IMG/VR virus record: IMGVR_UViG_3300032138_000680
Coordinates: 30,675 to 94,674 of that record
DNA length: 64,000 nt
Direction: 5' to 3' (one strand)
DNA from: a virus
Lineage: Duplodnaviria > Caudoviricetes
Positions 1-28,050 of this stretch are shown here, one piece after another; position 1 is the stretch's first letter; every line of letters begins with the position of its first letter. The position numbers and the translations under genes are program-made. The notes under the pieces were generated by a model, which saw only the letters and a list, made by a program, of their open reading frames with translations, was not told where the DNA came from and searched no databases.

Positions 1-935
1 TTTCCATAATCTTTAGAATAATCACAAAAATGTGAATTCAATGTCCAAAATCCAAATTTTTCAAGTAATTTTATTTTAGAAGGATGAGTCGCTAAAATAA
101 TTGGTACACCACTTATTAGTGCTCTAAAAGTTTTTTCAGTAAAAACTACATTTTCTCTATCCTCTAAACTAGCGGTTTCTGGAACAAATACTGTATGTCC
201 AGTTTGAAAATCCCAATACCATCCCATATTCACAGTATCCATCATTGTTCTATTACAAGTAATAAAATCTTTTGATTTATTTTTAGGTTGAATTTTGCTA
301 TTTGGAAATTTTTTATTAATTTTATTTATTAACTCCTCTCTCCATTTTCGTTTATTACCATCACCATCACTACCACTAAATCCTTTAAAGTATGAAAAAC
401 AAAATGATTTATCTCCTTTATATTCTATATTAAAATCTGTAAAAGATGGGTTATGATAAAATCCAAAATAATAAAAATAACGAGTAAATTGTAATAAAGG
501 TTGTTGTAATATTTTATACTTACCAGCCTTTAAAGATTTAAGTTTAGTTGATAAAACAATCGACTTTATCCTATCTAAATCAAAATTAGATTTTAACATA
601 TCAATATTAACTATCTCACCAAAATTTAAATAAATATGAACATCTACTTTATCTGGTACTCCTATCGTATCTAATCCTAAACGTGGTAATATTAATTTTA
701 TCTTATCATATTTTTCATCAGAACAAATATTGGCCACATTAGATTCTATATTACCATCTGTAAAAGTAATAATATCCCAATCTGGTAATCCCCTCTTTTT
801 AAACTTTATTATCCTTCCTTCTTGGCCGGGTCTATCTTCGCCTATCAGTTCAAATGGATAAAATAAAGAAAACAATATTGACATATCCAACTTTATTAAC
901 TCGTTATCAAAGGATGGTATAATAATAGCATTCAT
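1..935 (-). CDS. Partial (runs off window) glycosyltransferase-like protein with TEKT motif; absent from ORF track
   Basis: Manual translation from ATG at 935 (TAATG overlap with upstream stop): MNAIIIPSFDNE...VFVPET...VVFTEKTFRALISGVPIILATHPSKIKLLEKFGFWTL, open to window edge; ET..TEKT..P..L..GF motif resembles GT10-like phage proteins. Confidence 0.7.
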   Translation of the reverse strand, partial: MNAIIIPSFDNELIKLDMSILFSLFYPFELIGEDRPGQEGRIIKFKKRGLPDWDIITFTDGNIESNVANICSDEKYDKIKLILPRLGLDTIGVPDKVDVHIYLNFGEIVNIDMLKSNFDLDRIKSIVLSTKLKSLKAGKYKILQQPLLQFTRYFYYFGFYHNPSFTDFNIEYKGDKSFCFSYFKGFSGSDGDGNKRKWREELINKINKKFPNSKIQPKNKSKDFITCNRTMMDTVNMGWYWDFQTGHTVFVPETASLEDRENVVFTEKTFRALISGVPIILATHPSKIKLLEKFGFWTLNSHFCDYSKDYG

Positions 936-1687
936 TAGAACAAATCTCCCCATTCAGGTTTATATATATTCACATTATTACTATTTCCACTCTCATCTCT
1001 AAATTTATAAGGTGTTCTCGTTTTAAAATCTACATATGTAATTACTTTTTTTTCTTTCCAAAAGGCTTTGTTATGACTTTCTGGTTCTCTAAAATATTCT
1101 ATAAAATCACTATCACTGAAAGGTTTACGAAATATTCCAACAAAATCAATATCACCGTGATACCATCCCGCGTCCTGATCACTTACACCATCTAATCCAT
1201 TACAACATCCTATCCATAACCAAGCAGTACTATAATCTACGAGTTTTCCCTCGTACCTTATTTCTTCAACATATGGTCTATCCCAACCGGGTAAACCAAG
1301 CATAATAGTTATTTGTTTTCTATCATGACTGTGGTGAAAAACTACATCATAAGTTTTTCTTTCTGCTTCCTTAGACCACAAATAAACCTCTGATGGTATT
1401 TTATCGACTGCAATATATGTCATTTCAGGACCAACAGTACCATCTTCTTTTTCTACCCAAACTATACCTTTTATAAATCCATATCCCCTTTCATGAGAAA
1501 CTTGAATTCCAGCATGTTGACCATTCTTTATAACAACACCAGAGTCATAACTTTCAGTAATTTTAACCCAATCTGGATTAAATCTACACGCTATAGTTAT
1601 ATCTTTCTCCATCATATTCCAAATAGGAGACTTACTTAAATTAAATTTGTGTTTTGATGGTACAAATAATGGATCTGCTATTTTCAT
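935..1687 (-). CDS. Stand-alone LamG/concanavalin-A-like domain protein
   Basis: WLWIGCCN...WYHGDIDFVGIF...FRDESGNSNN resembles the LamG inserts of the neighbouring GT7 genes. Confidence 0.65.
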   Translation of the reverse strand: MKIADPLFVPSKHKFNLSKSPIWNMMEKDITIACRFNPDWVKITESYDSGVVIKNGQHAGIQVSHERGYGFIKGIVWVEKEDGTVGPEMTYIAVDKIPSEVYLWSKEAERKTYDVVFHHSHDRKQITIMLGLPGWDRPYVEEIRYEGKLVDYSTAWLWIGCCNGLDGVSDQDAGWYHGDIDFVGIFRKPFSDSDFIEYFREPESHNKAFWKEKKVITYVDFKTRTPYKFRDESGNSNNVNIYKPEWGDLF

Positions 1688-3132
1688 AATTTAATCTCCA
1701 AACATTTTCTATAAAAACTTTCATATTCTGGAAAAACTTCTACAAAATTTGTTCCTCGCCTTTTATCGTGTTCTTGAAAAAACCTACCAAAATCACTTCT
1801 GTTTATATTAAATGATTCCTTATCCCTATCAACAGAAATCATCCAGTCATAAATTCTTTTTATTTTTTGAACTTCAATATCAGAATACCCGATGTACATA
1901 CTTTCAAATATCGGCAAAGCAAGAAAATCCAATTGTTGAGCCTGTTTAAAAATCTCATCAGACCATATTTTAGGTAAAACTTGAACAGTTTGATGCTGTG
2001 GATATCTTAAATAACTTGTATCTAAAAAAGTTGCAGAATTCCAATATCTATCTGAAGAACCATATTGTTCTTTTAATTTATAGATACCATCAATTAATTT
2101 ACCATAATTAGGAACTGATAAGGCATTGTAAGTACTCATATAAGTTAAATTCACCCTCTTCAATACTTCTAATACCCTATGACAATTATCCCAAAAATAA
2201 TTAAAGTCTAATCCATGTCTAATATATTCTGCCTGTTTCCCCCAAGTATCCACAGATGTAAAAATAATAATTTCCTTAACTTTATCCTCTTGTTCAAGTA
2301 CTTTCATTTTTTCTAAAAACTTATCTATTATTTCTTTGGGTACACCTAAGTTTGAATTTATAGCTAAACTTAAATTTTTATTTGGATTTGGATGTTCTAT
2401 AATATAATCTAATACTTTAAAGGTATCTTTTGTTAATAATGGTTCTCCACCTGTTATTCTAAATGTATGTAAATCTTCATACAAATCTGGCCACCATTTC
2501 CAAAATGCTTCTACATATGGATTGTATTCTCTATGTGGAATTGGCATTTTATCTTCATTTGTTAAACCAGCAAGATTATTAAATCCTCCACCACCATCAG
2601 TTGTTGTTGGATAACCACCATGTTTATCTATTTCTTCCATCCAGGTAGATGAAAAAGCAGGCCCACAATAACTACATTTAAAATTACAGGCATTTGAAAA
2701 CGCAACCTCTACATATCTTGGATTAAAATCATCTCTCCAACTGGAATTTTTTATCTCATCATAATGTGGTAATGACCAAGATTCACCTGATTTAAATGTT
2801 CTATCCGAATATCTATCGGAATTGTCCTCTACGTTCCAACAATATGTACATTCATCTGGTCGTTTGTTATCTACCAACATTTCTTTTCTTCTCATTTTCT
2901 TATATCGAGTATTATGTAATGCAGAAGGATTTCTTTTTATTTCAGTTAAAGAAACTTTATGTGTTTTTGGATGATGGCAAGAATGGGTATGTCCATTCTG
3001 TAAATGAACTGTGACTTGTGTCCATTTTGCTAAACACATTCCACACCCAATCTCATCTAATTTACTCTTAGTACTTACAAGGTATGGCGATTCTTTTTCA
3101 ATGTATTTTCTTGCTTTTTGTGGATCGGCCAT
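1684..3132 (-). CDS. Radical SAM protein with N-terminal twitch-like Cys cluster
   Basis: CNFKCSYC (CxxxCxxC), TGGEPLL, N-terminal CLAKW..HSCHHP..ECTYCW. Confidence 0.9.
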   Translation of the reverse strand: MADPQKARKYIEKESPYLVSTKSKLDEIGCGMCLAKWTQVTVHLQNGHTHSCHHPKTHKVSLTEIKRNPSALHNTRYKKMRRKEMLVDNKRPDECTYCWNVEDNSDRYSDRTFKSGESWSLPHYDEIKNSSWRDDFNPRYVEVAFSNACNFKCSYCGPAFSSTWMEEIDKHGGYPTTTDGGGGFNNLAGLTNEDKMPIPHREYNPYVEAFWKWWPDLYEDLHTFRITGGEPLLTKDTFKVLDYIIEHPNPNKNLSLAINSNLGVPKEIIDKFLEKMKVLEQEDKVKEIIIFTSVDTWGKQAEYIRHGLDFNYFWDNCHRVLEVLKRVNLTYMSTYNALSVPNYGKLIDGIYKLKEQYGSSDRYWNSATFLDTSYLRYPQHQTVQVLPKIWSDEIFKQAQQLDFLALPIFESMYIGYSDIEVQKIKRIYDWMISVDRDKESFNINRSDFGRFFQEHDKRRGTNFVEVFPEYESFYRKCLEIKL

Positions 3133-3330
3133 TTATTTTTCTTCTTCTACTGGAGGTGTATCATCTACATATTTTTTATAAAATTCTGCAAGATAATATT
3201 GTACTCTATTACTCCATTCATCTTTATCTACTTCTTCAAACCAAATAGTTAAAGAATCAAGTATTGTAACTATTTTTTCAAGAGCTACTACTTTTCGTTC
3301 TTCTAATATTCTTTGATCTTTTTCGCTCAC
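3133..3330 (-). CDS. Small hypothetical helical protein
   Basis: 65-aa ORF fills gap in operon, AGGAG RBS upstream. Confidence 0.7.
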   Translation of the reverse strand: MSEKDQRILEERKVVALEKIVTILDSLTIWFEEVDKDEWSNRVQYYLAEFYKKYVDDTPPVEEEK

Positions 3331-3345
3331 TTTAAAACTCCTTTT

Positions 3346-4845
3346 TTAAAATTCAACATGACTTGGGATATCTTGTCCACAACGAAAATCTATTATTTCG
3401 TGATCCGTTCCAAATAGTTTTTCTCGTTTCACTACACTATAATTTAAATTTGTAAGTCCATCATCATCTGTATTTATTATACCACCTTGAACATCTTCTA
3501 CAAATCGTTTTTCGTTTACACTTGTATCCTTCTGGTGAACAAACTTACCACCTACGATATCATTTCGTGGATGTAATAGAGAAGTAAATTTACCAGGTCG
3601 ACTTCTATACGGTAAAATAGTATTTGGTATTTTATCAACAGATTCTATTCCTACTGAACATCCATTTAATACTCCATGATTTCCATTTCCACTCAAATCA
3701 TAAACTATATTCTTTTTTACTTTAGAAAAGTCATAATAAAGTGAAGAACCAGTGGGGATTGGATAATCAGTTTTATAGTAGTTCTTCACTTCATCTTTAC
3801 TTAATACCTTATCTAAAAGATAAACCTGTGCAACATCACCGGCAAAGAAATTAGATTCTTCTTTGTTAGGATCACCAACACCAATATAAAATGGATTTCC
3901 ACCATATCTCTTTAATGGCGGCTGAAACTTTAATGGCGATTCTGAACCGTGTCCGAATCTTGAATCTGATTCCCTACCATTTAAATAAAATCTCATTTCA
4001 TTCTTATCAACATTTATTGTAACCATCAAATGTGTCCAAACATCAGGATGTCTTTTTATCCACATATAAGAATGATTGTTCTTTCGGTTAAACAATCCAA
4101 ATGAATATGCATCTGAATTATCCCAGCCTAATCCCATTTGGAAACTTGGTCGTCCAAAAATATATTGATGAATAAATTTTCTATTTTCAACATCACCAAT
4201 TAAATATTTTGGAATATCAAATCTATCTTCTGCCCGAACCAATAACGCCATTGTAAAATTACCACTTGTAATTTCTCGTATAGAATCATTTGGACTTATT
4301 TTTACATAATCACTTAAACCATTAAATCTTAAAAAACTTCGTGGTTTATTTGATTCGTGAATCATAGATGTTTCATCTGCTAATCCCTTTTTCTTAGTTC
4401 TGTAAAATAAATCATCATCTTCCATTCCCCAATTAAAATAACCATTAGAATAACCATTTATTTTTTCGTAGTGTTCTTTAGTAAATAGAATAGCCCCACC
4501 AAAATATTCTTGATATTTCAATCCATATTCGAATTGTTGTACCATAACTGCTAAATGTTCTACTTTATCTGGATAAGAATAATCACAAGTAACATCTTCA
4601 GGAACCATATCTATATCGTGAAAACAGAAATAGTCATAACCCTCTTTTTGTGCAATATCAAATGCTACATTTTTAGCTGTTCCTCTATTGAATCCACTTA
4701 CACTATCTGGATAAACTTGATTGGCAACAAATATCTTATATTCTATATCCTTATCCTTAAAAAATTTATCCATATGTGGAACAAACTTTTTAAGATGTTC
4801 TTCCCTTTTATAATGTGGAACACATATTGCTAATTTTTTATTCAT
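3346..4845 (-). CDS. GT7 (beta-1,4-galactosyltransferase-like) glycosyltransferase with inserted LamG domain
   Basis: FNRG..NV, FHDID, YFGGA, NGYSN.YFNWGMEDDDL; LamG FNG..WTHL..YLNG..FAGDV..DLSGNGNHG; GT7 tail DGLTNLNY. Confidence 0.88.
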   Translation of the reverse strand: MNKKLAICVPHYKREEHLKKFVPHMDKFFKDKDIEYKIFVANQVYPDSVSGFNRGTAKNVAFDIAQKEGYDYFCFHDIDMVPEDVTCDYSYPDKVEHLAVMVQQFEYGLKYQEYFGGAILFTKEHYEKINGYSNGYFNWGMEDDDLFYRTKKKGLADETSMIHESNKPRSFLRFNGLSDYVKISPNDSIREITSGNFTMALLVRAEDRFDIPKYLIGDVENRKFIHQYIFGRPSFQMGLGWDNSDAYSFGLFNRKNNHSYMWIKRHPDVWTHLMVTINVDKNEMRFYLNGRESDSRFGHGSESPLKFQPPLKRYGGNPFYIGVGDPNKEESNFFAGDVAQVYLLDKVLSKDEVKNYYKTDYPIPTGSSLYYDFSKVKKNIVYDLSGNGNHGVLNGCSVGIESVDKIPNTILPYRSRPGKFTSLLHPRNDIVGGKFVHQKDTSVNEKRFVEDVQGGIINTDDDGLTNLNYSVVKREKLFGTDHEIIDFRCGQDIPSHVEF

Positions 4846-6320
4846 GTTACTGATATAAACTCGTGTTTATTTAAAAATTGTTCTTGATGTAAAATCTCAT
4901 ATTTAAGAGAACTTAAACCATCTTCTTTAATGTCTGTTAATCCTTGTCTAACCTTATTAAAAAACCGTAATTGGTTTTCTCGTGTTTCCCAATGAGTAAA
5001 CTTAGTCTGTCCCCACCCATTTTCTTCATGTTCTAAACAAGTGTATTTTCCATCTCGTCTGTTTGGTATTGTTGCGATACTACCAATTCTCAACTCTTTT
5101 TCTTTTTGAATTGCCCTGTATATTTTTGCATGATTATCATTTCCACTTTTATCAATAACCATGTTATCTACAATATTATCAAAATTCCAATAACCAACTA
5201 CATTTTTTGCCGATTTATAAATTTCTTGTCCAGACTTCCACCCGTCAAATTGTTTACTGGCCGTCACATTTCGGGGATACCCATTATTATATAAATATAA
5301 TGCCTCTTCGGGATCTAAACAATTAGACCAAAGAGTTACCTGTGCCACAGTTCCTTTAAAATAACCCTCATCACCGCTTCTCGCATTTGGATTTGCACAT
5401 CCAATGTAATATGGAACATTGGTTGACTCTCTAATCTTCCCTAAAAAATCTGTTGGTGATTCGTTTGTTTCTACTCCATTTACAAACATCCTCAGTCGTT
5501 TTAAAATGTGGTCTACTGTATAAACAATATGAACCCATTCATCAGTTCGTCTGTCTGAAACTACCATAGATTGTTCATTGTCTGTATTCCAAATACCACC
5601 TTTATATTGCATCCCACTTGTATAGGCAATCCCTACATGATGTCCTGGTCGAGTAAAGACATGAAACTCATCGTATTCTTTATTTTCGTCAAGAACTATA
5701 TCATCAGATGGTTCTACCCAAGCCTCAACTGAAAATGATGAATTTACCACTCTATTTAATAAAAGTGTATTCTTTATTTCAAGATAATCTCTACCATTAA
5801 ATTCCATAGTACTTATGTATCGTGGTACTTTATCTTTCGATGAACCAGTCCATTGTTCTTGTAATGGAACTCCTCGTTTTTTACAACGATAAAGTAAATC
5901 ATCATCCTCAAATCCCCATCCCCAATACTTGTTAGAATATCCATTTATCCACTCAAAATGTTCTTTGTTGAATAATGTAACTCCACTAAAGTATTCAGGA
6001 TAGACTAAACGATAATTGAATTTACTTAATCTTGCTGCAAGATGTGTTGGTTTATCTACCCAAGAATAATCACACGTTTTATCTTCAGGTAACATATCCA
6101 CATCGTGGAAACAAAAATAATCAAATCCTTGTTGTGATGATACATCGTATCCTACATTTATTAACCATCCACGATTAAAGGGCCTATCGTTCCCTTGTTC
6201 CACTACAAAGATTTTGAAATCTATCTCTTTATCAGATAGAAATTTCTCCATATGTGGAACAAATTTAGCGAGATGTTCTTCTCTATCCCGATACGGAACT
6301 ATTATCGCCAATTTAGTCAT
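4842..6320 (-). CDS. GT7 glycosyltransferase with inserted LamG domain
   Basis: IIVPYRDR, FNRGWLINVG, FHDVDMLP, NGYSNKYWGWGFEDDDL; LamG FSVEAWV..FVNG..YWNFD..DKSGNDNHA; tail DGLSSLKY. Confidence 0.9.
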   Translation of the reverse strand: MTKLAIIVPYRDREEHLAKFVPHMEKFLSDKEIDFKIFVVEQGNDRPFNRGWLINVGYDVSSQQGFDYFCFHDVDMLPEDKTCDYSWVDKPTHLAARLSKFNYRLVYPEYFSGVTLFNKEHFEWINGYSNKYWGWGFEDDDLLYRCKKRGVPLQEQWTGSSKDKVPRYISTMEFNGRDYLEIKNTLLLNRVVNSSFSVEAWVEPSDDIVLDENKEYDEFHVFTRPGHHVGIAYTSGMQYKGGIWNTDNEQSMVVSDRRTDEWVHIVYTVDHILKRLRMFVNGVETNESPTDFLGKIRESTNVPYYIGCANPNARSGDEGYFKGTVAQVTLWSNCLDPEEALYLYNNGYPRNVTASKQFDGWKSGQEIYKSAKNVVGYWNFDNIVDNMVIDKSGNDNHAKIYRAIQKEKELRIGSIATIPNRRDGKYTCLEHEENGWGQTKFTHWETRENQLRFFNKVRQGLTDIKEDGLSSLKYEILHQEQFLNKHEFISVT

Positions 6321-6712
6321 TATTTACCGAATAATTTACCGACCACCGACTTCTTTTCTTTAGGTTCTTCGCCCAAAGTCTTTGCAATTTCACTTGCAAT
6401 GTCTGCTGCAGATGCTTGTGGTTGTGCAACTGGTGGGGCTGATACTCCTTCTGGATTACTCTCTACATAGTTCTTAACTATATTATAGATTTCCCATAGT
6501 TTCCAATCAATTGCCTCAACCTTTTCTTCTATGTTAGTCAATGACTTAACTGCTATTGCAGTAAGTTCACTACCTTCATTAGAATCAAGGGCGTCTTTTG
6601 CGTCTGCCTTTTCCTCTTTTTCTGGGTTGTTCCAAGGTTGATCCTCTGCTTTAGTTCCAGTTTCTTTAGTTTCAACTGGTTTTGTTTCAGTTTCTTTTTT
6701 AGTTGCCATCAC
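6320..6712 (-). CDS. Hypothetical low-complexity protein with central helix (IDWKLWE)
   Basis: 130-aa ORF in operon, GGAG RBS. Confidence 0.7.
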   Translation of the reverse strand: MMATKKETETKPVETKETGTKAEDQPWNNPEKEEKADAKDALDSNEGSELTAIAVKSLTNIEEKVEAIDWKLWEIYNIVKNYVESNPEGVSAPPVAQPQASAADIASEIAKTLGEEPKEKKSVVGKLFGK

Positions 6713-6720
6713 TTTTCTCC

Positions 6721-8211
6721 TTATATTAAAACTTCTATTATTTCATGTTTTTCTTGATAGTCCTGTCTATTAACTATCCTAAATCTTGTTGATGTTAGTC
6801 CATCTATATCTACATCCCGCATATTTGCTCCAACCTTTTTATTAAAAGTCTTACGATTTGTCATTATTTCGGGGCCATCCCCATTCCTGTCGTGTTTAGT
6901 TCTTGTTAAATTTTCGAGATTTAAATAATCATCGTGAGATGATAAATAACCATAAGCACCATTTCTTCTATAAGGTAAATATCTTTCTGTATTACTTTTT
7001 AAAGATTTATTTGCAAATTTGACATTGTAAAACTTTGCATGGTTTCCATTTCCACTCATATCAAAAGTGATATCATCATAACCGCTCTTAAAATTCCAAA
7101 CTCCTACTGGTAATTTAGAAGTTACATATTCACCTTTATTGTTAACTATTCCTTTATTAAAAATTAATTCCATTTCATAATCGTTTAACGTATCTGACCA
7201 CAACCCTACTTCTGCTATTTGTCCTTTATAAAAATTTCTCCAATGTGTTGTAGTTGGATTACCAACTCCAATATAATATGGCTTATTCAAATACTCAACA
7301 AGTTGTCCTTCATAACTCTTTTTACCTGCTTCTTTACCATTCACATAAAGAGTTAATGTTTGTTCTTTATCATCTACAACCATACCAATGTGTGACCATA
7401 CAGTTGTACGTTGAAATGGAACTTTTATTAATACTGGTTCTCTTTCATTACTTCCCTCTTTTCTAATCCAAATTACACCCTTTAAAAACCTACCGTGTAT
7501 ATATGAAAGTCCTGTGTGATAACCAGGTCGCATAAAAATACTATATTCACATCTATTACTATCTACATCTGCACCATAAGGTGGTTCTCCATTGGGACAA
7601 AACCAAGTAGATATTGAAAAACTTTTATTGGTTGCGTTTTTAATCTTTGTATTTTCAGCTGGTATTTCTATGTAAGAATTCATTCCATTAAAATTTCCAT
7701 AAGTTTTTGATACGTTTTTTCCCAGTTCTATTCTAACTGACAATCCTCTAACAACACATCTAAATAATAAATCATAATCTTCATATCCACTGCCCCAATA
7801 TTCATTTGAATATCCATTTATTTGTTCATAATGTTCTTTTGAAAATAAAACTGCCCCACCAAAATATTCATCATATGGTAAACTATAATCATCAAAATTT
7901 TGAACTTTTTCTTGATCACCAAACTCTATCTTGTTTCTCATACCAACTAATGAAATCGGTTTTTCTTCATAAGAATAATCACATTCATAAGAAATAGGTA
8001 TTAAATCTGAATCGTGGAAGCAAAAATAATCAAACTTATCCTTATGTAACATATATCCAATATTAAACAACTTACCTTTATTTAATGGTCTATTTGATTT
8101 TTGTTTCATAAAAACTAATTTATAATCACCATCTACTGTAGCATCAAAATGATTTACAAAATTTTCTATATGTTCTTCATTATATGGAAGTATAATCGCT
8201 AATCTTTTCAT
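6721..8211 (-). CDS. GT7 glycosyltransferase with inserted LamG domain (variant motifs)
   Basis: LNKGKLFNIG, FHDSDLIP, NGYSNEYWGSGYEDYDL; LamG insert; tail DGLTSTRF. Confidence 0.87.
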   Translation of the reverse strand: MKRLAIILPYNEEHIENFVNHFDATVDGDYKLVFMKQKSNRPLNKGKLFNIGYMLHKDKFDYFCFHDSDLIPISYECDYSYEEKPISLVGMRNKIEFGDQEKVQNFDDYSLPYDEYFGGAVLFSKEHYEQINGYSNEYWGSGYEDYDLLFRCVVRGLSVRIELGKNVSKTYGNFNGMNSYIEIPAENTKIKNATNKSFSISTWFCPNGEPPYGADVDSNRCEYSIFMRPGYHTGLSYIHGRFLKGVIWIRKEGSNEREPVLIKVPFQRTTVWSHIGMVVDDKEQTLTLYVNGKEAGKKSYEGQLVEYLNKPYYIGVGNPTTTHWRNFYKGQIAEVGLWSDTLNDYEMELIFNKGIVNNKGEYVTSKLPVGVWNFKSGYDDITFDMSGNGNHAKFYNVKFANKSLKSNTERYLPYRRNGAYGYLSSHDDYLNLENLTRTKHDRNGDGPEIMTNRKTFNKKVGANMRDVDIDGLTSTRFRIVNRQDYQEKHEIIEVLI

Positions 8212-9068
8212 ACTCTATACTCTAATGCTTGTGTTCTTACTGTATCCCAATGTGGATAATCCTCATAATTTTTACTACCCTTTTCTATCATAAACCTTTC
8301 ATCTTCTATATCTATTCTACCATAATTATCAATGATATAATCAAACATATCTCTATACTCTTTGTGAAAAGTATAGTCCTTTTTAATACGAGAAACTTCT
8401 CGTAATCTACCCATTACAGATATGTCCCATTTAAAATGATGAACTTGAATAAAACACTTATCAACAGGATATCGTAATGAATGATTCCATCTATTTCCAT
8501 AAGTATCTTCACCATCTATCATTGCATAATGTTGTCCATTAGTAATTTGAATATCACCTTTAACCACAACTGTCTTATTTGGACAAGCATTTGAAACTGG
8601 TAATCTAAATGAACCTGCCAATGGAAACTCTTTCCAAACATCACTATCATCATTTATCTTTGGAAATCTACCACCTTCACCAATTCTATCTAAAAATGCT
8701 CCTGTAATAAATTTATAACTATTCTCCTCACAATCTTCTATGAGTTCGTTAATTGGTTTTGGATAAACATGAAATTCATCATCGTCTGATACAATCCACC
8801 AATCATCTGGTTTTAATAATTTTGTTTCGTTGTATAATTCTGTAACTCTTTCCCAATTAAATGGTTCTTCAAAAGTTTTTCTATGAATATCAATATTTAA
8901 ATCACGAGTGATTTCTTTAACTTCTGATAAAACCTTATCTTTGTCTGAAGATAAATATACCACTACAAATATATCATCTACCATATCTTTATAATGATTC
9001 AACATATGTCTTAACATTGTGGTATTATGACCGCAAACTGTAACTAAATTAATATTCATGGAGATCAA
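8208..9068 (-). CDS. GT-A fold (GT2-like) glycosyltransferase
   Basis: MLNHY, WWIVSDDDEF DxD motif, GQH, VHHFKW; likely true start at ATG 9059. Confidence 0.72.
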   Translation of the reverse strand: MISMNINLVTVCGHNTTMLRHMLNHYKDMVDDIFVVVYLSSDKDKVLSEVKEITRDLNIDIHRKTFEEPFNWERVTELYNETKLLKPDDWWIVSDDDEFHVYPKPINELIEDCEENSYKFITGAFLDRIGEGGRFPKINDDSDVWKEFPLAGSFRLPVSNACPNKTVVVKGDIQITNGQHYAMIDGEDTYGNRWNHSLRYPVDKCFIQVHHFKWDISVMGRLREVSRIKKDYTFHKEYRDMFDYIIDNYGRIDIEDERFMIEKGSKNYEDYPHWDTVRTQALEYRV

Positions 9069-10540
9069 TCAGTATCCTCGTGATAGACGGGGGCATTTCT
9101 TAAATGGTGTGTTAAATTCTCAGGTGTAATTAACTTTTTACATTTATGATAAAAATCTTCCATTTCAGGAAAAGTTTTTAAGAAGTTTTTTCCTCTACGT
9201 TTATCATACTCATCAATAAACAAAACAAAATCTATTCGTTGCTTTTCCAACCAATGTTCATTCTGTGTAAACATATCTGTCATTCTTCTAACTTTTTCCT
9301 GCTCAAAATCAAAAAAACCTACTTCGTAATATCCATCAACGTGCTCATATTTATGCATTCCTAAATCTTCCATAAAACGAGATAATTCATTTATTTTTTC
9401 TAACCAATCTGCTGTTAAAATTCTAAAATCTAAAAATTCTGGATGTCTTATGTATGATGTATCCAAAATAATTGAATAATCTCTATATCTTTTAGTACTA
9501 CCATATATTTTTTTCAATCTGTAAACCTTCTGAATTACTTTATGGTATGAAGAAATACTTAAAGCATTAAATGCCGCCATAATAGTAACTTCAGGTCTCT
9601 CACATTTTGTAAGAAATTCATCTACTCTATTCCACAACACTCCTGAATCCAACCCATCTCTAATATACTCTGCTTGTTTACCATCTGCCTCTATACTTGT
9701 AAATAATACAAAGTTCCATACTAAATCATTATCAGTAATATATTTAACCTTATCTAAAAATTCTTCCCATAGTCCATCAGGAACAGATAAATTAGAATTT
9801 ACACACAATTCTATTTTTGGATTGACTGTTGGATTATCTATAATATAATCTAAAACTTTAAAGGTGTCTTTATGTAAAAGTGGTTCACCGCCGGTTATTC
9901 TAAATGTATGGAGTCTTGGAAATAAATCTGGCCACCATTTCCAAAATGCATCTCTGTATGGGTTTGGTTTAGTATGTGGTATAGGAACAATTCCATCTCG
10001 TTCCATCCATTCTATATTATTATAATATCCACTCGTTGGATAAGCACCAAGCGTTGATATCTCGTGTTGCCAATTAGAACTACTTTTCACATCACAATAA
10101 GCACAGGCCATATTACATTGATTACTAAACGAGATTTCTACATATGGCGGAAATACATCTTCATTTCCTGTCAAGTTTTTTATATTTTCAAAATGTGGAA
10201 GTGCCCATGCTTCACCACTTTTTAGTACTCTATCACTAAACGATTCTTCATTTGAATCCTCTACATTCCAACAATAATCACATTCTTTTGGACGACCACC
10301 ATGTAACATTGTTTTTCTTTGAAGTTTTTTAAACTTTGTATTATGGAGTGCAGATGGATTTTCTTTAATTTCCTCTAATGGAATTTTATGTGGAATAGGA
10401 TGGTGACAAGAATGAGTTTGACCAGTCTGTAAAAGAATACTAACTTGATTCCACTTTGCTAAACAAAAACCTTTACCGACTTTATTTAAGCCTTCTCTTA
10501 CCATTTCAAAATTTTTTAATCCACTAACACCCTTTGCCAT
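9065..10540 (-). CDS. Radical SAM protein with N-terminal twitch-like cluster; paralog of 1684..3132
   Basis: CNMACAYC, TGGEPLL, FCLAKW..HSCHHP..ECDYCW. Confidence 0.9.
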   Translation of the reverse strand: MAKGVSGLKNFEMVREGLNKVGKGFCLAKWNQVSILLQTGQTHSCHHPIPHKIPLEEIKENPSALHNTKFKKLQRKTMLHGGRPKECDYCWNVEDSNEESFSDRVLKSGEAWALPHFENIKNLTGNEDVFPPYVEISFSNQCNMACAYCDVKSSSNWQHEISTLGAYPTSGYYNNIEWMERDGIVPIPHTKPNPYRDAFWKWWPDLFPRLHTFRITGGEPLLHKDTFKVLDYIIDNPTVNPKIELCVNSNLSVPDGLWEEFLDKVKYITDNDLVWNFVLFTSIEADGKQAEYIRDGLDSGVLWNRVDEFLTKCERPEVTIMAAFNALSISSYHKVIQKVYRLKKIYGSTKRYRDYSIILDTSYIRHPEFLDFRILTADWLEKINELSRFMEDLGMHKYEHVDGYYEVGFFDFEQEKVRRMTDMFTQNEHWLEKQRIDFVLFIDEYDKRRGKNFLKTFPEMEDFYHKCKKLITPENLTHHLRNAPVYHEDTD

Positions 10541-10541
10541 A

Positions 10542-11243
10542 CTAAATCCTTCTCAAAATAGTAAGTCCAGAAGAAGATAACTTTTCAGATTTCTCCTTGT
10601 GGTCAAACAAATTAAATGTTTCCCATTCATCACTAACTTCTTTTACAACTTCACTTGGGCCTGTACATGCATCATGTGGTTCACCTTTATATGTATTGAA
10701 ACTTTCCCAATATTTCTCATCTGTATCATGTATTGATATAATTCCATTTTCATTCATTATAGTAGAGTATAAATCAAAATCAAGTTTACAACCTTCATAA
10801 GTATGATCTGCATCTATGTGTAAATAATCTATTTTAATATCTCGTTTAACAAAAAAATTATAAAATGCTTCTTCGGTAGTAGAATTTATAAATCGTGGAT
10901 TAAATTGTGTTCTCAAAAAACTATCATCATCAGACCAATCTACTTCACCATTTACACTATTGGTTGCATCAACGACATAAACCTCACCATATTTACCTTC
11001 ACCATACATTTGAGTTTCGTTTAACTCATAAACACAATCAACCATCAATCTTGGCACATATCCACCACCACTACCAAGACAAACATTAACTCTTGCCTTT
11101 AAAAAATATGGAATGGCATAGTAAAATATTCCAGCGCCAATATACTCATCGTTTGCACCATGAGTCCATCTATATGATACTGAACCTGAATCTTGATTTC
11201 TTGTTATTGAATCGTATATCCAACCACGATTTAGTATTGACAT
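10542..11243 (-). CDS. Class I SAM-dependent methyltransferase (Methyltransf_24-like)
   Basis: LGSGGG, IDYLHIDADHTYEG..DF, GIISIHD. Confidence 0.85.
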   Translation of the reverse strand: MSILNRGWIYDSITRNQDSGSVSYRWTHGANDEYIGAGIFYYAIPYFLKARVNVCLGSGGGYVPRLMVDCVYELNETQMYGEGKYGEVYVVDATNSVNGEVDWSDDDSFLRTQFNPRFINSTTEEAFYNFFVKRDIKIDYLHIDADHTYEGCKLDFDLYSTIMNENGIISIHDTDEKYWESFNTYKGEPHDACTGPSEVVKEVSDEWETFNLFDHKEKSEKLSSSGLTILRRI

Positions 11244-13262: not shown

Positions 13263-14288
13263 TCAATTATTATAAATTTCCAGATATCTATTCACCCATT
13301 CTTCCTTATTATCATATTGTCTACAATAATCCCTCAGTCCATCCAAATAATCTTGTCTTTCTCTCTCTGATAATTCTGATATATTATCTATTTGTTCATC
13401 AAATTGTTGTTTATTTAAAGCTCTGAATGGATATTCGTAGTTTGACAGCCAATCTTGTTGTAATATAGGTAATTTTCCATAATCTAATGATTGGAATATA
13501 GAGTAACCGAATGGTTCATTTAAAAAACACGAATGTGATATTCCCCAGTCCTCTCTATTAAAGAATCTATGTAAATTATTATAATTAAATTGATATACTT
13601 TTGTTTTTTCGAACTTTAAATTAAGATTTTTCTTCCACCACTTAAAGTCATTTACATCCGTAAATGCCATTGAATCTATTCCATCTAAAAAATGTGGTGA
13701 TTTACGAGTTTCACAACGAGAAGCGAATCCCACTCTATTACTCATACACACTTTTTTATTTTGTGTAAACTCGTAATAATTTGGTATATCTATTATATCA
13801 AATTTATTATGTAATGGCATTTTATCCGTACCAATCCAAACTACCTTCTTTGCCCATTGAGTCACTTTCTTTTCCCACTCAGGAACTGCAGAAAAATGTA
13901 AATAATTTTTTAATCCTAAATCAAACCCAGCCTTTAACGATAAATCTAATGATACATGAATACATAAAGATTCTATTTTATCTTTATTATACTCTATTAC
14001 TTTATGTGGTGTATAATATCCGTGTAAGATATGAATCTTTCTTGCATTTTTTATTGTTTCTTCAAATCCACGAGGATCATATCCTTGCCAAACAATATCT
14101 ATTGGACTATCATATTTAATTTTAATATTTTCAGGTCTACGGCGATGAATCAATAATTTAGATGGATGATTCAGTTTAGGGGCTACTTCTCGTAACCAAT
14201 TATTAACCCAAACATCACTTCCACCATATACCATAGAACCACCACCCGTTGAATAATAAACATCATACATTCCTTTAGTCCCTTTCAT
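13263..14288 (-). CDS. GT-B (GT4-like) glycosyltransferase
   Basis: N-terminal GG loop, R..RK, EPFGYSIFQSLDYGKLPI. Confidence 0.8.
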   Translation of the reverse strand: MKGTKGMYDVYYSTGGGSMVYGGSDVWVNNWLREVAPKLNHPSKLLIHRRRPENIKIKYDSPIDIVWQGYDPRGFEETIKNARKIHILHGYYTPHKVIEYNKDKIESLCIHVSLDLSLKAGFDLGLKNYLHFSAVPEWEKKVTQWAKKVVWIGTDKMPLHNKFDIIDIPNYYEFTQNKKVCMSNRVGFASRCETRKSPHFLDGIDSMAFTDVNDFKWWKKNLNLKFEKTKVYQFNYNNLHRFFNREDWGISHSCFLNEPFGYSIFQSLDYGKLPILQQDWLSNYEYPFRALNKQQFDEQIDNISELSERERQDYLDGLRDYCRQYDNKEEWVNRYLEIYNN

Positions 14289-24196: not shown

Positions 24197-25045
24197 TTAC
24201 TTTCCATTCACAGAATAATAATTATCTGATACTGTATTAGGTCGTTGATCTATTATCGTATTTTTTACTGCAAAAACATTCATATTCTCAAATTGATAAT
24301 TTACCCACAAATCAATTGGCCCGTATGCTGGTAACTTTTCTAACAATTTTTTTGCACCTTCATAAGTTAAAACATATCCAGAAAGCCACCATAAACCCAT
24401 CTTCACAGACAATAAATCCTTAGAGTATTCTTCATATTGAAAATCTGGAAAATCTTCTTGTATTTTAAACCAACTATCAAACATTTCCCTGTCATTTGGA
24501 AGATAAGATAAATACAACATATCAAAATCATGTGGAAGTTGGTGAAAAGTTTCTGATATTTTTTTTAAAAAATCAAAATTAAAATATACATCATCCTCTA
24601 ATATTAATGTAGTCTGTATTTTATTATCAACAATATGTTTCCATACATTTATATGAGATAACGCAATTCCATGTTCTTCATCAGATGAGCGTATGGTATC
24701 ATCTATTAAATAATTATATTCATATATATGATTATCTTCTGAAGAATTGTGTACATTCTTACCATCTACCGCATCCATAAATTTAGTTTTTGCCCATAAT
24801 GTTTTTCTATTTAAACGTAAACGACTAAGCTCTCTTTTTATTTGTCTAAATCTATCATATCGATGTCGCATATGAATCACAATAACTGAATTTATTAAAT
24901 TTTCAAATCGTATCACAAATTTTCTTTCAAATAATCTGGAAAATTTTGTAAGAAAAAATCTACCCCACACTTTTAATATAAACCTAATGTCTTTCACATT
25001 GATGGTCCATTTGTGTGGAATATAATCAATAAAAAATGGATGCAT
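24197..25045 (-). CDS. GT25 glycosyltransferase
   Basis: R.DR, DAVDG, GIALSH..VW, LILEDD, GYVLT..GAKKLL, PID; start moved to ATG 25045 (GGGAG RBS). Confidence 0.85.
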   Translation of the reverse strand: MHPFFIDYIPHKWTINVKDIRFILKVWGRFFLTKFSRLFERKFVIRFENLINSVIVIHMRHRYDRFRQIKRELSRLRLNRKTLWAKTKFMDAVDGKNVHNSSEDNHIYEYNYLIDDTIRSSDEEHGIALSHINVWKHIVDNKIQTTLILEDDVYFNFDFLKKISETFHQLPHDFDMLYLSYLPNDREMFDSWFKIQEDFPDFQYEEYSKDLLSVKMGLWWLSGYVLTYEGAKKLLEKLPAYGPIDLWVNYQFENMNVFAVKNTIIDQRPNTVSDNYYSVNGK

Positions 25046-25046
25046 A

Positions 25047-27261: not shown

Positions 27262-28050
27262 TTAACCGCCTCCACCACCTTCGTCATCGTCATATTCATA
27301 CCACTCATTAAATGCATGTGGTTCATCAGTATCAGGCCCATCAGTTGAATTTGTATTAAAAGCGGGTACAGTATGTCCTGATCCACCAGCGAGGCCTCCA
27401 TCAATATTATCTAACATTGTATATGGGCCCGAATAACTGGTCGCGGAGGGAGCTTCTTCTACTTGCGCCCCATCCCAGTAAATTATTTCATCATCAGCTG
27501 ATGGTGGCCCTCCAAATCTTACTTGAAAATTTTCAGTATCTACATGATTTGCCTTTCTTGTTGCCTCAAATCTTTGCCAAGATGTAGTTACAGAAATATA
27601 ATCCACTCCATAGTTACCAGATAAAATTGTACCATCTGATTCTGCAAAAAATGTCCATAAGGTACAGGTACAGGCTTTACTTGCCTTTGCCCAAGTACTA
27701 AAAGTCCATGTTTCACCATTGTTTGCATCCCAGTTAAAACTCCCAGCGCTTGTATTATATGTATATGTATATGCATCATTACCACCTGAACCAGCGTCCA
27801 ATCTCATTTCTAATGGAGTACCTACTGAATCTTCTGGAAAAGTAACAGGAGAAGTCAAGGTAGTATTTTGAGATAATGTACATCTTGCACCATTTGTATT
27901 TCCTCCGGCAGTAAGCCAGGCCCATAAATTATAAGGATGTGAAAGTTGATTTACATCTCTTGGTACTAAATAGGCTGTGTCATAATCATCGAAGGCCCTT
28001 TCTTTAGTAATTCCTATTAAATGTACTGTTCCGCTACTTGGAACTGCCAT
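27262..28050 (-). CDS. Tail-fibre-associated protein with carbohydrate-binding (CBM4/9-like) insert
   Basis: MAVPSSG N-terminus, TWTFSTWAK..VTTSWQRF..WDGAQVE, PHAFNEWY; immediately downstream of fibre gene. Confidence 0.7.
   Translation of the reverse strand: MAVPSSGTVHLIGITKERAFDDYDTAYLVPRDVNQLSHPYNLWAWLTAGGNTNGARCTLSQNTTLTSPVTFPEDSVGTPLEMRLDAGSGGNDAYTYTYNTSAGSFNWDANNGETWTFSTWAKASKACTCTLWTFFAESDGTILSGNYGVDYISVTTSWQRFEATRKANHVDTENFQVRFGGPPSADDEIIYWDGAQVEEAPSATSYSGPYTMLDNIDGGLAGGSGHTVPAFNTNSTDGPDTDEPHAFNEWYEYDDDEGGGGG

What the first reader, a model, noticed from the sequence alone, without database searches (positions are those of the whole stretch)
935..8211. Three tandem eukaryote-type GT7 enzymes, each split by an internal LamG domain, plus a free LamG
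In all three paralogs the LamG domain sits between the catalytic W-G-x-E-D-x-D motif and the GT7 C-terminal segment (G.Y..L.H...DGL..L.Y), so it is inserted inside the fold, not appended. A stand-alone LamG gene lies downstream. Catalytic motifs differ (WGFEDDD, WGMEDDD, GSGYEDYD), implying different specificities or one non-catalytic subunit. Inference: LamG recognises acceptor glycans or assembles a multi-enzyme chain-extension complex.
Basis: partly seen in the sequence, partly recalled or inferred. Interest (0 to 1): 0.75.

Follow-up and report, generated by a model that had tools for sequence, protein, structure and literature searches.

The report
Phage GT7 glycosyltransferases split by LamG
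A large uncultured marine phage carries three neighbouring sugar-transferring enzymes of the animal beta-1,4-galactosyltransferase family, each with a lectin-like LamG domain inserted inside the catalytic fold. The trio is conserved in hundreds of related phages, next to a giant serine/threonine-rich tail-fibre gene that it probably glycosylates.

Summary
Three minus-strand genes, A (6721-8211), B (4842-6320) and C (3346-4845), each score above Pfam cut-offs for Glyco_transf_7N, Glyco_transf_7C and Laminin_G_3. An AlphaFold model of B (pLDDT 89.8) superposes on bovine B4GalT1 across residues 1-492 (215 aligned, Z 28.5). Residues 167-413 form a LamG/pentraxin-like sandwich (Z 22-23). Compact bacterial GT7 proteins of 220-300 aa have core and tail contiguous, so the LamG is a true insertion. 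Gene 935-1687 is a free homologue of the insert.

New here:
- The window is a fragment of a T4-like jumbo phage.
- At least 452 IMG/VR contigs encode relatives; no GenBank phage and no PHROG does.
- 68 of 78 fetched loci keep the triplet, and positions A, B and C form three pure clades.
- B and C keep every catalytic residue in 62 of 62 loci.
- A is degenerate and is the copy missing from two-copy loci.
- The conserved order is: fibre, GT-B enzyme, methyltransferase, GT2, A, small protein, B, C, twitch radical SAM, free LamG.
- The fibre carries 91 G-T-(S/A) triplets, and the 58-kb sugar island shows no multi-pass membrane protein.

Fibre O-glycosylation is the best reading but is inferred, not shown. 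"Eukaryote-type" needs qualifying. First readers of this scan noted the same architecture in other genomes.

The parts
6721..8211 (-). GT7-LamG paralogue A (496 aa; motif GSGYEDYD). It is the accessory, catalytically relaxed copy.
   Evidence: Pfam 7N+7C+Laminin_G_3. Clade A is pure in 62 loci. Catalytic positions are degenerate across the clade. It is the copy missing in two-copy loci.
6320..6712 (-). Small acidic protein (130 aa, GTG start) between A and B.
   Evidence: ORF. Homologues in 10 loci at the same position. No family hit.
4842..6320 (-). GT7-LamG paralogue B (492 aa; WGFEDDD). It is catalytically intact.
   Evidence: Pfam. phmmer E 1e-35 to B4GalT1. AF2 model pLDDT 89.8. Z 28.5 to B4GalT1. 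Catalytic residues kept in 62/62 loci.
5841..6320 (-). B residues 1-160: GT7 core with the UDP-binding PYRDRE segment, DVD (D73/D75), Tyr110 (Y289-equivalent) and WGWGFEDDD (catalytic Asp139).
5082..5822 (-). B residues 167-413: the inserted LamG/pentraxin-like beta-sandwich.
   Evidence: Laminin_G_3 at 61.7 bits. VIA Z 22-23 to 4dqa and PAPP-A, Z 17-20 to pentraxins, over model 167-413.
4845..5081 (-). B residues 414-492: the GT7 tail returning to the catalytic fold (GKYTCLEH with His431, then EDGLSSLKY).
   Evidence: VIA alignment spans model 1-492 against B4GalT1 179-397. The tail HMM hits the contiguous C-termini of bacterial GT7. His kept in 62/62 loci in B and C.
3346..4845 (-). GT7-LamG paralogue C (499 aa; WGMEDDD). 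It is the most conserved copy, and its start overlaps the B stop by 4 nt.
3136..3330 (-). Small conserved helical protein (64 aa, GTG start behind an AAGGAG site). In most related loci its homologue sits between A and B.
   Evidence: Sequence read. Homologues in 53-55 loci.
1684..3132 (-). Twitch-domain radical SAM enzyme (rSAM2), conserved directly after C.
   Evidence: NF033640 at 341 bits. Present in 74 loci.
935..1687 (-). Free-standing LamG protein (250 aa), homologous to the insert.
   Evidence: hhalign 95.7%, E 9e-9. The insert HMM hits free ORFs in the same position in about 30 loci.
8208..9068 (-). GT2-like glycosyltransferase; its stop overlaps the start of A.
   Evidence: Glyco_tranf_2_4 at 27.3 bits, just under the cut-off. 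Present in 74 loci.
9065..10540 (-). Twitch-domain radical SAM enzyme (rSAM1). At this position only in the closest relatives.
   Evidence: NF033640 at 300 bits. Gene order.
10542..11243 (-). Methyltransf_24 methyltransferase of the conserved module.
   Evidence: Present in 71 loci.
13263..14288 (-). GT-B fold (GT4-like) glycosyltransferase. In most relatives it is the first gene after the fibre gene.
   Evidence: No Pfam, PHROG or NCBIfam hit. AF2 pLDDT 92.3. Z 20-24 to GT-B enzymes. Present in 63 loci.
28034..38245 (-). Giant tail fibre (3403 aa) with 91 G-T-(S/A) collagen-like triplets (residues 2549-2821, about 29783-30601) and a C-terminal Peptidase_S74 chaperone. It is the proposed acceptor.
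   Evidence: Pfam Collagen and Peptidase_S74. Triplet count. Fibre homologues lie upstream of the module in 44 loci.

Best explanation
Shown:
- A, B and C are soluble members of the GT7 (beta-1,4-galactosyltransferase-like, inverting GT-A) family.
- In each, a LamG/pentraxin-like beta-sandwich of about 250 aa is inserted between two elements. One is the helix that follows the catalytic WGxEDDD motif. The other is the strand that carries the metal-binding His at the hinge of the flexible lid loop.
- The insertion sits at the same point in all three. The three gene positions form orthologous clades across the phage lineage.
- B and C keep all donor, metal and catalytic-base residues.
- A is an accessory copy with a relaxed active site. 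It is lost in some phages.

Inferred:
- One insertion event preceded two duplications.
- The enzymes work in the infected cell's cytoplasm, together with the GT-B enzyme, the GT2 enzyme, the methyltransferase and the twitch radical SAM of the same conserved module.
- They build a defined O-glycan on the Ser/Thr-rich giant tail fibre encoded just upstream, or on another virion protein.
- Each LamG insert, placed beside the acceptor-side loop, serves as a paralogue-specific acceptor-recognition module.
- The conserved Tyr at the Y289 position suggests a hexose donor rather than an N-acetylhexosamine donor.
For: Architecture:
- Pfam domains; phmmer to B4GalT1; AF2 model.
- VIA Z 28.5 over model 1-492, and LamG Z 22-23.
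- Uninserted bacterial homologues in which the tail HMM hits directly after the core.

Conservation:
- 452 IMG/VR contigs encode relatives.
- The triplet is present in 68 of 78 loci.
- Positions A, B and C form pure clades in 62 loci.
- B and C are invariant at the equivalents of D252, D254, Y289, W314, E317, D318, D319 and H347; A is degenerate.
- Two-copy loci keep B and C.
- LamG identity between paralogues is only 21-25%, against 39-45% for the core.

Target:
- The conserved order is fibre, GT-B, methyltransferase, GT2, A, small protein, B, C, rSAM, LamG.
- The fibre carries 91 G-T-(S/A) triplets.
- Neighbouring fibres have a median maximum Ser+Thr of 0.38 per 100 aa, against 0.16 for background.
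- A hydropathy scan of about 60 genes in the 58-kb island found no multi-pass membrane protein, only two marginal single segments.
- Precedents: collagen-like BclA fibres are densely O-glycosylated (PMC10050317); mycobacteriophage virions are glycosylated (cited in PMC12619734).
Against: - No direct evidence that the fibre, or any protein, is glycosylated.
- Gene neighbourhood is circumstantial, and tail fibres are often Ser/Thr-rich anyway.
- Long GXY runs were seen in only two of the sampled fibres (window and L081). Many fibre ORFs are cut by the locus ends.
- Soluble glycosyltransferases can also act on lipid-linked host intermediates.
- The hydropathy scan is crude.
- About 69% of the phage genome is missing.
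- Donor and acceptor are unknown.
Confidence: 0.5

Rival explanations
1. The module remodels a host envelope glycan during infection (LPS, capsule, S-layer or general O-glycosylation), for example to block superinfection. It would act on the cytoplasmic face on lipid-linked or protein acceptors made by the host.
For: The island contains LPS-type families: GT25 twice, GT9/GT1 and NDP-sugar tailoring genes. Soluble glycosyltransferases commonly act on undecaprenyl-linked intermediates (general knowledge). The host is unknown.
Against: The roughly 60 island genes contain no flippase, polymerase, ligase or initiating polyprenol-phosphate transferase, and no multi-pass membrane protein. The module is tightly and persistently linked to the fibre gene across 44 loci.
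Confidence: 0.2
2. The LamG inserts, the free LamG and the small helical protein mainly hold A, B and C together as a multi-enzyme complex. A would be a non-catalytic scaffold or activator, as GtfB is for GtfA. They would not bind the acceptor. This reading can coexist with the best explanation.
For: A is catalytically degenerate yet retained in most phages. The genes overlap or abut, which suggests coupled translation. Pentraxin-like folds, the structural neighbours of the insert, often oligomerise (general knowledge).
Against: A is dispensable in several lineages. There is no positive evidence of binding.
Confidence: 0.12
3. The enzymes make a soluble glycoconjugate or a glycosylated ribosomal peptide. 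The twitch radical SAM enzymes and a small conserved protein would supply the aglycone.
For: Twitch rSAM enzymes flank the trio. Small conserved ORFs lie inside it.
Against: The small protein is predicted helical and acidic and has no Cys-rich core. There is no protease or exporter, and the fibre linkage would be left unexplained.
Confidence: 0.08
4. The glycosyltransferases hypermodify phage DNA with glycans to evade restriction.
For: Phage glycosyltransferases often glycosylate DNA (PMC12619734 and references in it). The neighbouring GT-B enzyme resembles T4 AGT and BGT among many other GT-B enzymes (Z 17-20).
Against: No hydroxymethylase or other base-modification gene was seen in the window. 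LamG domains are not known as DNA binders. GT7 enzymes act on sugar acceptors. The resemblance to AGT is generic to the GT-B fold.
Confidence: 0.05

Closest known systems
Animal beta-1,4-galactosyltransferases B4GalT1 and B4GalT7 (CAZy GT7; PDB 1tvy, 1o0r, 4irq)
   Same: Same GT-A fold (Z 26-28.5, 206-215 residues aligned, 33-34% identity). B and C share the DxD motif, Tyr at the Y289 position, WGxEDDD with the catalytic Asp, His on the lid-loop hinge and the DGL..L.Y end.
   Different: No signal-anchor or stem, and the first ~50 residues of the animal catalytic domain are missing (the model starts at bovine residue 179). A 250-aa LamG is inserted before the His strand. The lid-loop segment is about 10 residues longer. 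The proteins are cytoplasmic phage proteins, and their activity is untested.
Compact bacterial and giant-virus GT7-like proteins (for example loci L092-L094, L101 Simkania, L111 Vibrio; BFVD entries from Mimivirus LCMiAC01, Megaviridae and Aureococcus anophagefferens virus)
   Same: The closest sequence relatives of the core, at 46-55% identity. Core and tail motifs are the same. The giant-virus entries match the core at 30-36% identity.
   Different: Core and tail are contiguous, 220-300 aa in all, with no LamG. They are single genes, not triplets. As far as I know none is characterised.
Lactose synthase (B4GalT1 plus alpha-lactalbumin)
   Same: A separate protein module docks next to the lid loop of a GT7 enzyme and resets acceptor specificity (established knowledge; PDB 1nf5 and 4l41 are among the best structural matches). 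The LamG insert emerges at the hinge of that same loop.
   Different: Here the extra module is covalently inserted and has an unrelated fold. Any specifier role is inference only.
Polypeptide GalNAc-transferases (GT27 catalytic domain plus ricin-type lectin domain)
   Same: A GT-A enzyme is fused to a lectin-like domain that steers it to densely glycosylated Ser/Thr-rich substrates (established knowledge).
   Different: There the lectin domain is appended at the C-terminus rather than inserted. The glycosyltransferase family, lectin fold and mechanism (retaining) all differ.
BclA collagen-like exosporium fibre glycosylation in Bacillus anthracis; virion glycosylation in mycobacteriophages, chloroviruses and mimiviruses
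   Same: A collagen-like or Ser/Thr-rich fibre is decorated in the cytoplasm with oligosaccharides that contain rare tailored sugars, made by a dedicated operon (PMC10050317; PMC12619734 citing Freeman 2023).
   Different: The glycosyltransferase families differ. No GT7-LamG enzyme is known in those systems. Glycosylation of this phage's fibre is not shown.
GtfA/GtfB of streptococcal serine-rich repeat adhesins
   Same: An active glycosyltransferase is paired with a catalytically dead paralogue that handles the Ser-rich fibre substrate (established knowledge). Paralogue A shows comparable decay of catalytic residues.
   Different: That pair has the GT-B fold, and its complex is shown experimentally. 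Here no interaction is shown.

Membership tests
CAZy GT7 / Pfam Glyco_transf_7N + Glyco_transf_7C | Significant match to both family profiles | tested here: met
   A, B and C are all above the gathering cut-offs: 7N at 37-88 bits against 27, 7C at 59-76 bits against 23. phmmer gives E 1e-35 to B4GalT1.
CAZy GT7 / Pfam Glyco_transf_7N + Glyco_transf_7C | GT-A fold superposable on B4GalT1, including the C-terminal strands | tested here: met
   The AF2 model of B against 1tvy_A gives Z 28.5, rmsd 2.1 A and 215 aligned residues, model 1-492 to chain 179-397. This is a predicted structure, not an experimental one.
CAZy GT7 / Pfam Glyco_transf_7N + Glyco_transf_7C | DxD metal/donor motif and lid-loop His (D252, D254 and H347 of bovine B4GalT1) | tested here: met
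   B and C keep them in 62/62 loci. A keeps the two Asp in 59 and 56 of 62 and the His in 34/62. Window A has D-S-D, and a His aligned at that position.
CAZy GT7 / Pfam Glyco_transf_7N + Glyco_transf_7C | WGxEDDD with Glu317 and the catalytic base Asp318 | tested here: met
   B and C keep them in 62/62 loci. In clade A, Glu is kept in 25/62 and Asp in 43/62. Window A reads E-D-Y-D. The feature is met for B and C and only partly for the A clade.
CAZy GT7 / Pfam Glyco_transf_7N + Glyco_transf_7C | Inverting transfer of a UDP-hexose to the 4-OH of an acceptor sugar | not testable with these tools
   This needs enzyme assays. Only the donor-pocket Tyr (Y289-equivalent, 62/62 in B and C) hints at a hexose donor.
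Animal-type Golgi B4GalT | Type II membrane anchor and stem; secretory-pathway enzyme | tested here: not met
   The proteins start at the position of bovine residue 179 and have no hydrophobic segment. They share the GT7 fold but are not animal-type Golgi enzymes.
LamG / concanavalin A-like (Pfam Laminin_G_3) | Profile match and beta-sandwich fold | tested here: met
   48.6-63.6 bits against a cut-off of 27.6. Z 22-23 to 4dqa and the PAPP-A LamG, and Z 17-20 to pentraxins, over model 167-413.
LamG / concanavalin A-like (Pfam Laminin_G_3) | Ligand binding (carbohydrate or protein), often through a Ca2+ site | not tested
Free LamG (935-1687) as homologue of the insert | Profile-profile similarity over the whole domain | tested here: met
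   hhalign gives 95.7%, E 9e-9 and 197 aligned columns, including the trailing D.SGN.N strand. There is no Pfam hit on its own, and its structure was not predicted.

The most novel reading that the evidence does not exclude
A phage-restricted glycosylation machine. Two to three GT7 enzymes each carry a built-in LamG acceptor specifier at the lid-loop hinge, a covalent counterpart of alpha-lactalbumin. Together with a GT-B initiator, a methyltransferase and a twitch radical SAM, they lay a mucin-like coat of rare sugars on giant collagen-like tail fibres of abundant marine jumbo phages. This would make fibre glycans, not only fibre protein, a determinant of host recognition or of protection in the sea.
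Probability: 0.3. Interest if true: 0.85.

Novelty: new variant of a known kind. Interest (0 to 1): 0.68.

Why it matters
GT7 is one of the best-studied glycosyltransferase families, yet I know of no member with a domain inserted inside the catalytic fold, and full-text searches found none.

The family is large. There are 2328 cluster representatives at E <= 0.001, most of the best ones with all three domains. At least 28 Atlas clusters are labelled 100% viral, and 452 IMG/VR contigs encode relatives. It is absent from cultured phages and from PHROGs.

The rigidly conserved trio next to a giant Ser/Thr-rich fibre gives a directly testable model for virion glycosylation in environmental jumbo phages.

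It also offers a natural experiment on how an added lectin-like module steers a GT-A enzyme, because uninserted bacterial homologues are available as controls.

The enzymes could also be useful glyco-engineering tools: they are soluble, free of disulfides and cytoplasmic relatives of B4GalT.

Tried and rejected
- Complex prediction on B + C with orthologue alignments: no verdict (score 0.00). This counts neither for nor against binding.
Gene context came from IMG/VR loci instead.
- tblastn and megablast against 50,697 GenBank phages: no match for B or for the first 20 kb of the window.
- PHROGs: no family for B, C, the free LamG, the small proteins or the GT-B enzyme.
- NCBIfam: only chance-level hits for A, B and C.
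- Core-only tree of phage, bacterial and one animal GT7: too little signal. Six or seven of the 27 bacterial sequences fall on the phage side, and the single eukaryote attaches to the long A branch. I therefore make no claim about a donor lineage or about phage monophyly. A single origin rests on the shared insertion point.
- 'Collagen glycosylation through hydroxylysine' was considered because of the GT25 and 2OG-oxygenase genes. It is dropped as a general explanation. The repeat is G-T-(S/A) with no Lys or Pro, and long GXY runs were seen in only two of the sampled fibres.
- The Atlas label 'CAP10 domain' for 13263-14288 was not specifically borne out. The model is a generic GT-B/GT4-like fold.
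- The moraphage paper (PMC12619734) reports four glycosyltransferase orthogroups in the core genome of Bacteroidota-infecting jumbo phages of up to 307 kb. That fits this contig (about 305 kb by the CheckV estimate), but I could not verify that it is the same lineage.
- BFVD holds no viral model with the full architecture. Hits cover either the LamG or the GT7 part, with TMq at most 0.40.


Full report
**What is there**

The first 12 kb of the window is a tight run of minus-strand genes, in DNA of about 30% G+C with strongly negative GC skew. Three ORFs each score above Pfam gathering cut-offs for Glyco_transf_7N, Glyco_transf_7C and Laminin_G_3:
- A, 6721-8211, 496 aa
- B, 4842-6320, 492 aa
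- C, 3346-4845, 499 aa

The 7C match stops at about profile position 62 of 78. The LamG match follows, and about 80 residues remain after it. The three proteins are 35-40% identical and colinear.

**Is the LamG really inside the fold?**

Yes. Four results agree.
- phmmer aligns B residues 3-154 to human and bovine B4GalT1 at E about 1e-35. It also aligns residues 451-481, weakly, to the segment that ends in DGLNSLTY.
- An AlphaFold2 model of B, built on 36 homologues, has mean pLDDT 89.8 and pTM 0.85.
- VIA-align superposes that model on bovine B4GalT1 residues 179-397 with 215 residues at 2.1 A and Z 28.5, spanning model residues 1-492. Foldseek's local alignment of the N-terminal part alone covers 154 columns, so about 60 further aligned residues come from the C-terminal tail.
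- Residues 167-413 align separately to LamG/pentraxin-type sandwiches: BACOVA_03559, the PAPP-A LamG domain and PTX3/SAP/CRP, at Z 17-23.

By motif, GKYTCLEH in B corresponds to GKCRMIRH of B4GalT1, which ends in the metal-binding His347. EDGLSSLKY corresponds to SDGLNSLTY. This correspondence rests on my knowledge of the B4GalT1 sequence together.

The insert therefore leaves the catalytic domain after the helix that follows the catalytic Glu-Asp pair. It returns just before the strand at the hinge of the flexible lid loop.

An independent natural control came from a scan of one genome per prokaryotic species. Bacterial genomes encode compact GT7 proteins of 220-300 aa. They include Verrucomicrobiota, Simkania and Waddliaceae, Planctomycetota, Acidobacteriota, Elusimicrobia, beta-proteobacteria and an isolate of Vibrio nomapromontoriensis. 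In them, an HMM of the phage core and an HMM of the phage tail hit back to back. In L093, for example, the core covers 7-155 and the tail 156-221. The GRYISLSH and EDGLNSLEF segments follow the core helix within about ten residues.

**The free LamG**

Gene 935-1687 (250 aa) has no Pfam, PHROG or NCBIfam hit. Against the family alignment, however, hhalign gives 95.7% probability and E 9e-9 over 197 columns. The match corresponds to insert residues 188-403 and includes the trailing D.SGN.N strand. An HMM of the insert finds similar free ORFs in the same position, after the radical SAM gene, in about 30 related loci.

**Whose genes are these?**

The window is the right-hand 64 kb of a 94.7-kb IMG/VR viral contig that CheckV rates 31% complete. 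It encodes T4-like baseplate wedge, SbcC-like and primase proteins. The nearest cultured relatives by the baseplate protein are Microcystis phage Mel-JY01 and Flavobacterium phage immuto, at 39-44% identity.

The GT7-LamG architecture has the following distribution:
- It is absent from 50,697 GenBank phage records and from PHROGs.
- It is common in metagenomes: 2328 cluster representatives at E <= 0.001, the best ones nearly all carrying the three domains and labelled 'hypothetical protein'.
- At least 28 ESM Atlas clusters carry it, all labelled viral (Uroviricota).
- 452 IMG/VR contigs encode relatives.
- In prokaryotic genome bins the full architecture occurs on only about ten MAG contigs. 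Several are labelled Flavobacteriales, and one is 248 kb long. These are most simply phage contigs caught in bins.

A 2025 paper on 'moraphages' describes jumbo phages of Bacteroidota of up to 307 kb. It lists four glycosyltransferase orthogroups in their core genome, without domain detail (PMC12619734). That may be the same lineage, but I could not verify it.

**A conserved, ordered trio**

- Of 78 related loci fetched with 10-kb flanks, 68 hold three GT7-LamG genes in tandem.
- In a maximum-likelihood tree of 186 proteins from 62 complete triplets, the first, second and third genes form three perfectly pure clades, with support 0.99, 0.69 and 1.0. Together with the shared insertion point, this indicates one insertion followed by two duplications before the lineage diversified.
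- B and C keep, in 62 of 62 loci, the equivalents of B4GalT1 D252, D254, Y289, W314, E317, D318, D319, D320 and H347.
- B and C differ from each other at fixed pocket positions. The G316-equivalent is Phe in B and Met in C. The G313-equivalent is Gly in B and mostly Asp in C.
- Clade A is relaxed. Glu317-equivalent is kept in 25 of 62 loci. The catalytic Asp318-equivalent is kept in 43 of 62 and is Trp or Tyr in the rest. Asp319-equivalent is mostly Leu or Ile. Arg228-equivalent is mostly Tyr. The His is kept in about half.
- In this window, A still has D-S-D, E-D and an aligned His, so it may be active here.
- Loci with only two copies have lost A and kept B and C.
- Conservation falls from core to tail to LamG, and from C to B to A. 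The LamG inserts of different paralogues are only 21-25% identical. That is what one expects if each insert has its own ligand.

**Neighbourhood**

The same order recurs across the loci: giant fibre gene; a 341-aa protein; Methyltransf_24; a GT2-like gene; A; a small helical protein; B; C; a twitch radical SAM; the free LamG. A second twitch radical SAM sits between the methyltransferase and the GT2-like gene only in close relatives.
- The 341-aa protein (13263-14288) has no family hit. It folds with pLDDT 92.3 into a GT-B glycosyltransferase, with Z 20-24 to sucrose-phosphate synthase, BshA, PimA, PglA and others. T4 AGT and pneumococcal GtfA are among the lower matches.
- The radical SAM genes match NF033640, the twitch-domain radical SAM family, at 300 and 341 bits.
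- The small protein (3136-3330, GTG start behind AAGGAG) has homologues in more than 50 loci, usually between A and B.

The fibre of this window (28034-38245, 3403 aa) has Pfam Collagen repeats and a C-terminal Peptidase_S74 chaperone. The 'collagen' is 91 consecutive G-T-(S/A) triplets, with Thr in 88 of the 91 X positions. Fibres next to the module in other phages are also rich in Ser/Thr. Their median maximum is 0.38 per 100 residues, against 0.16 for other ORFs of 300 aa or more. L081 has 147 GTS/GSS triplets.

A hydropathy scan covered the roughly 60 genes between the contig start and the fibre, a 58-kb block of sugar-nucleotide, tailoring and transferase genes. It found no multi-pass membrane protein and only two marginal single segments.

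**How it most likely works**

Shown:
- B and C are structurally intact GT7 enzymes.
- The LamG is an internal insertion at the lid-loop hinge.
- The trio and its neighbours form a conserved phage module beside a Ser/Thr-rich fibre gene.

Inferred:
- The module acts in the cytoplasm on a soluble acceptor, most likely the fibre.
- It would build an O-glycan of a few residues. The GT-B and GT2 enzymes, then the GT7 enzymes, would add sugars. The methyltransferase and radical SAM would tailor them.
- Each LamG would read the growing glycan or the fibre backbone for its own catalytic domain.
- The conserved Tyr at the Y289 position suggests hexose rather than HexNAc donors, by analogy with the published B4GalT1 Y289L work (my knowledge).
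- A may be a specificity or scaffold subunit where its active site has decayed.

Dense O-glycosylation of collagen-like BclA fibres with a rare tailored sugar is a close precedent (PMC10050317). Virion glycosylation in mycobacteriophages is another (cited in PMC12619734).

I put this reading at about 0.5. The rivals are host envelope remodelling (0.2), a mainly scaffolding role for LamG (0.12, compatible with the main reading), a soluble or peptide glycoconjugate (0.08) and DNA glycosylation (0.05).

**Comparison with what is known**

The proteins meet every sequence and fold criterion of GT7 that I could test. They are not animal-type Golgi enzymes, because they lack the anchor and stem.

The label 'eukaryote-type' overstates the case. 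Uninserted bacterial homologues are closer to the phage core (46-55% identity) than animal B4GalT1/7 (37-41%). Giant viruses also carry uninserted GT7 genes. A core-only tree could not resolve the origin.

Lectin-assisted glycosyltransferases are known, such as the ppGalNAc-transferases. A protein specifier acting at the GT7 lid loop is also known, namely alpha-lactalbumin. A lectin-like domain inserted within a GT7 catalytic domain, fixed as an ordered trio in a virus lineage, was not found in the literature searched.

**Limits**
- Structures are predictions.
- The geometry of LamG relative to the active site could not be measured.
- Donor, acceptor and any complex are untested. The one complex prediction gave no verdict and is reported only under things tried.
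- First readers of this scan noted the same architecture in at least three other genomes. Those notes are unchecked and were not used as evidence.

Noticed in passing
window 29783-30601 (fibre residues 2549-2821): There are 91 consecutive G-T-(S/A) triplets, with Thr in 88 of the 91 X positions and no Pro or Lys. This is a collagen-like tract resembling the O-glycosylated repeats of BclA. The repeat also produces spurious long ORFs in other frames (29731-30627 on the plus strand, 29772-30623 and 29779-30711 on the minus strand).
   Followed up: partly
window 3136-3330 (-) and 6320-6712 (-): Two small acidic helical proteins lie inside the trio. The 64-aa one (GTG start, AAGGAG site) has homologues in more than 50 related loci, usually between A and B, with a conserved LE.RKVKALEKI...W.EEI.K.EWS.R..YYL core. 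Neither belongs to a known family.
   Followed up: partly
window 13263-14288 (-): A 341-aa protein with no Pfam, PHROG or NCBIfam hit folds confidently as a compact GT-B (GT4-like) glycosyltransferase. In most related phages it is the first gene after the fibre gene.
   Followed up: yes
contig G000 1-68919 (window up to 38245): About 58 kb of same-strand sugar-nucleotide, tailoring and glycosyltransferase genes (about 60 ORFs) lie between the contig start and the fibre. A simple hydropathy scan finds no multi-pass membrane protein among them, which is unusually large for a phage glycan island.
   Followed up: partly
window 24197-25108 (-) and 43755-44621 (-): Two GT25-family glycosyltransferase genes (Pfam Glyco_transf_25, 'LPS biosynthesis protein'). 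One is beside the fibre gene; the other lies among replication genes.
   Followed up: no
window 1684-3132 (-) and 9065-10540 (-): Both radical SAM genes match NCBIfam NF033640 (twitch domain-containing radical SAM protein) at 341 and 300 bits. Some related loci carry runs of four to six such genes (L037, L066, L076).
   Followed up: partly
loci L092-L111 (bacterial genomes): Compact 220-300-aa GT7 proteins with intact WGxEDDD, metal-binding His and DGL motifs occur in Verrucomicrobiota, Chlamydiota (Simkania, Waddliaceae), Planctomycetota, Acidobacteriota, Elusimicrobia, beta-proteobacteria and Vibrio nomapromontoriensis. Some are fused to longer N- or C-terminal regions (L095 at 882 aa; L100 and L102 at about 575 aa).
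   Followed up: partly
loci L088, L090, L091, L089 (MAG contigs): Contigs binned as Flavobacteriales/Flavobacteriaceae (one of 248 kb) and Spirochaetaceae (196 kb) carry tandem GT7-LamG genes. They are probably jumbo-phage contigs inside MAGs. The Flavobacteriales labels may hint at the host.
   Followed up: no
window 11302-12795 (-): A 497-aa protein ends in a PT-HINT/Hint domain. Homologues flank the GT-B gene in about 13 related loci.
   Followed up: no
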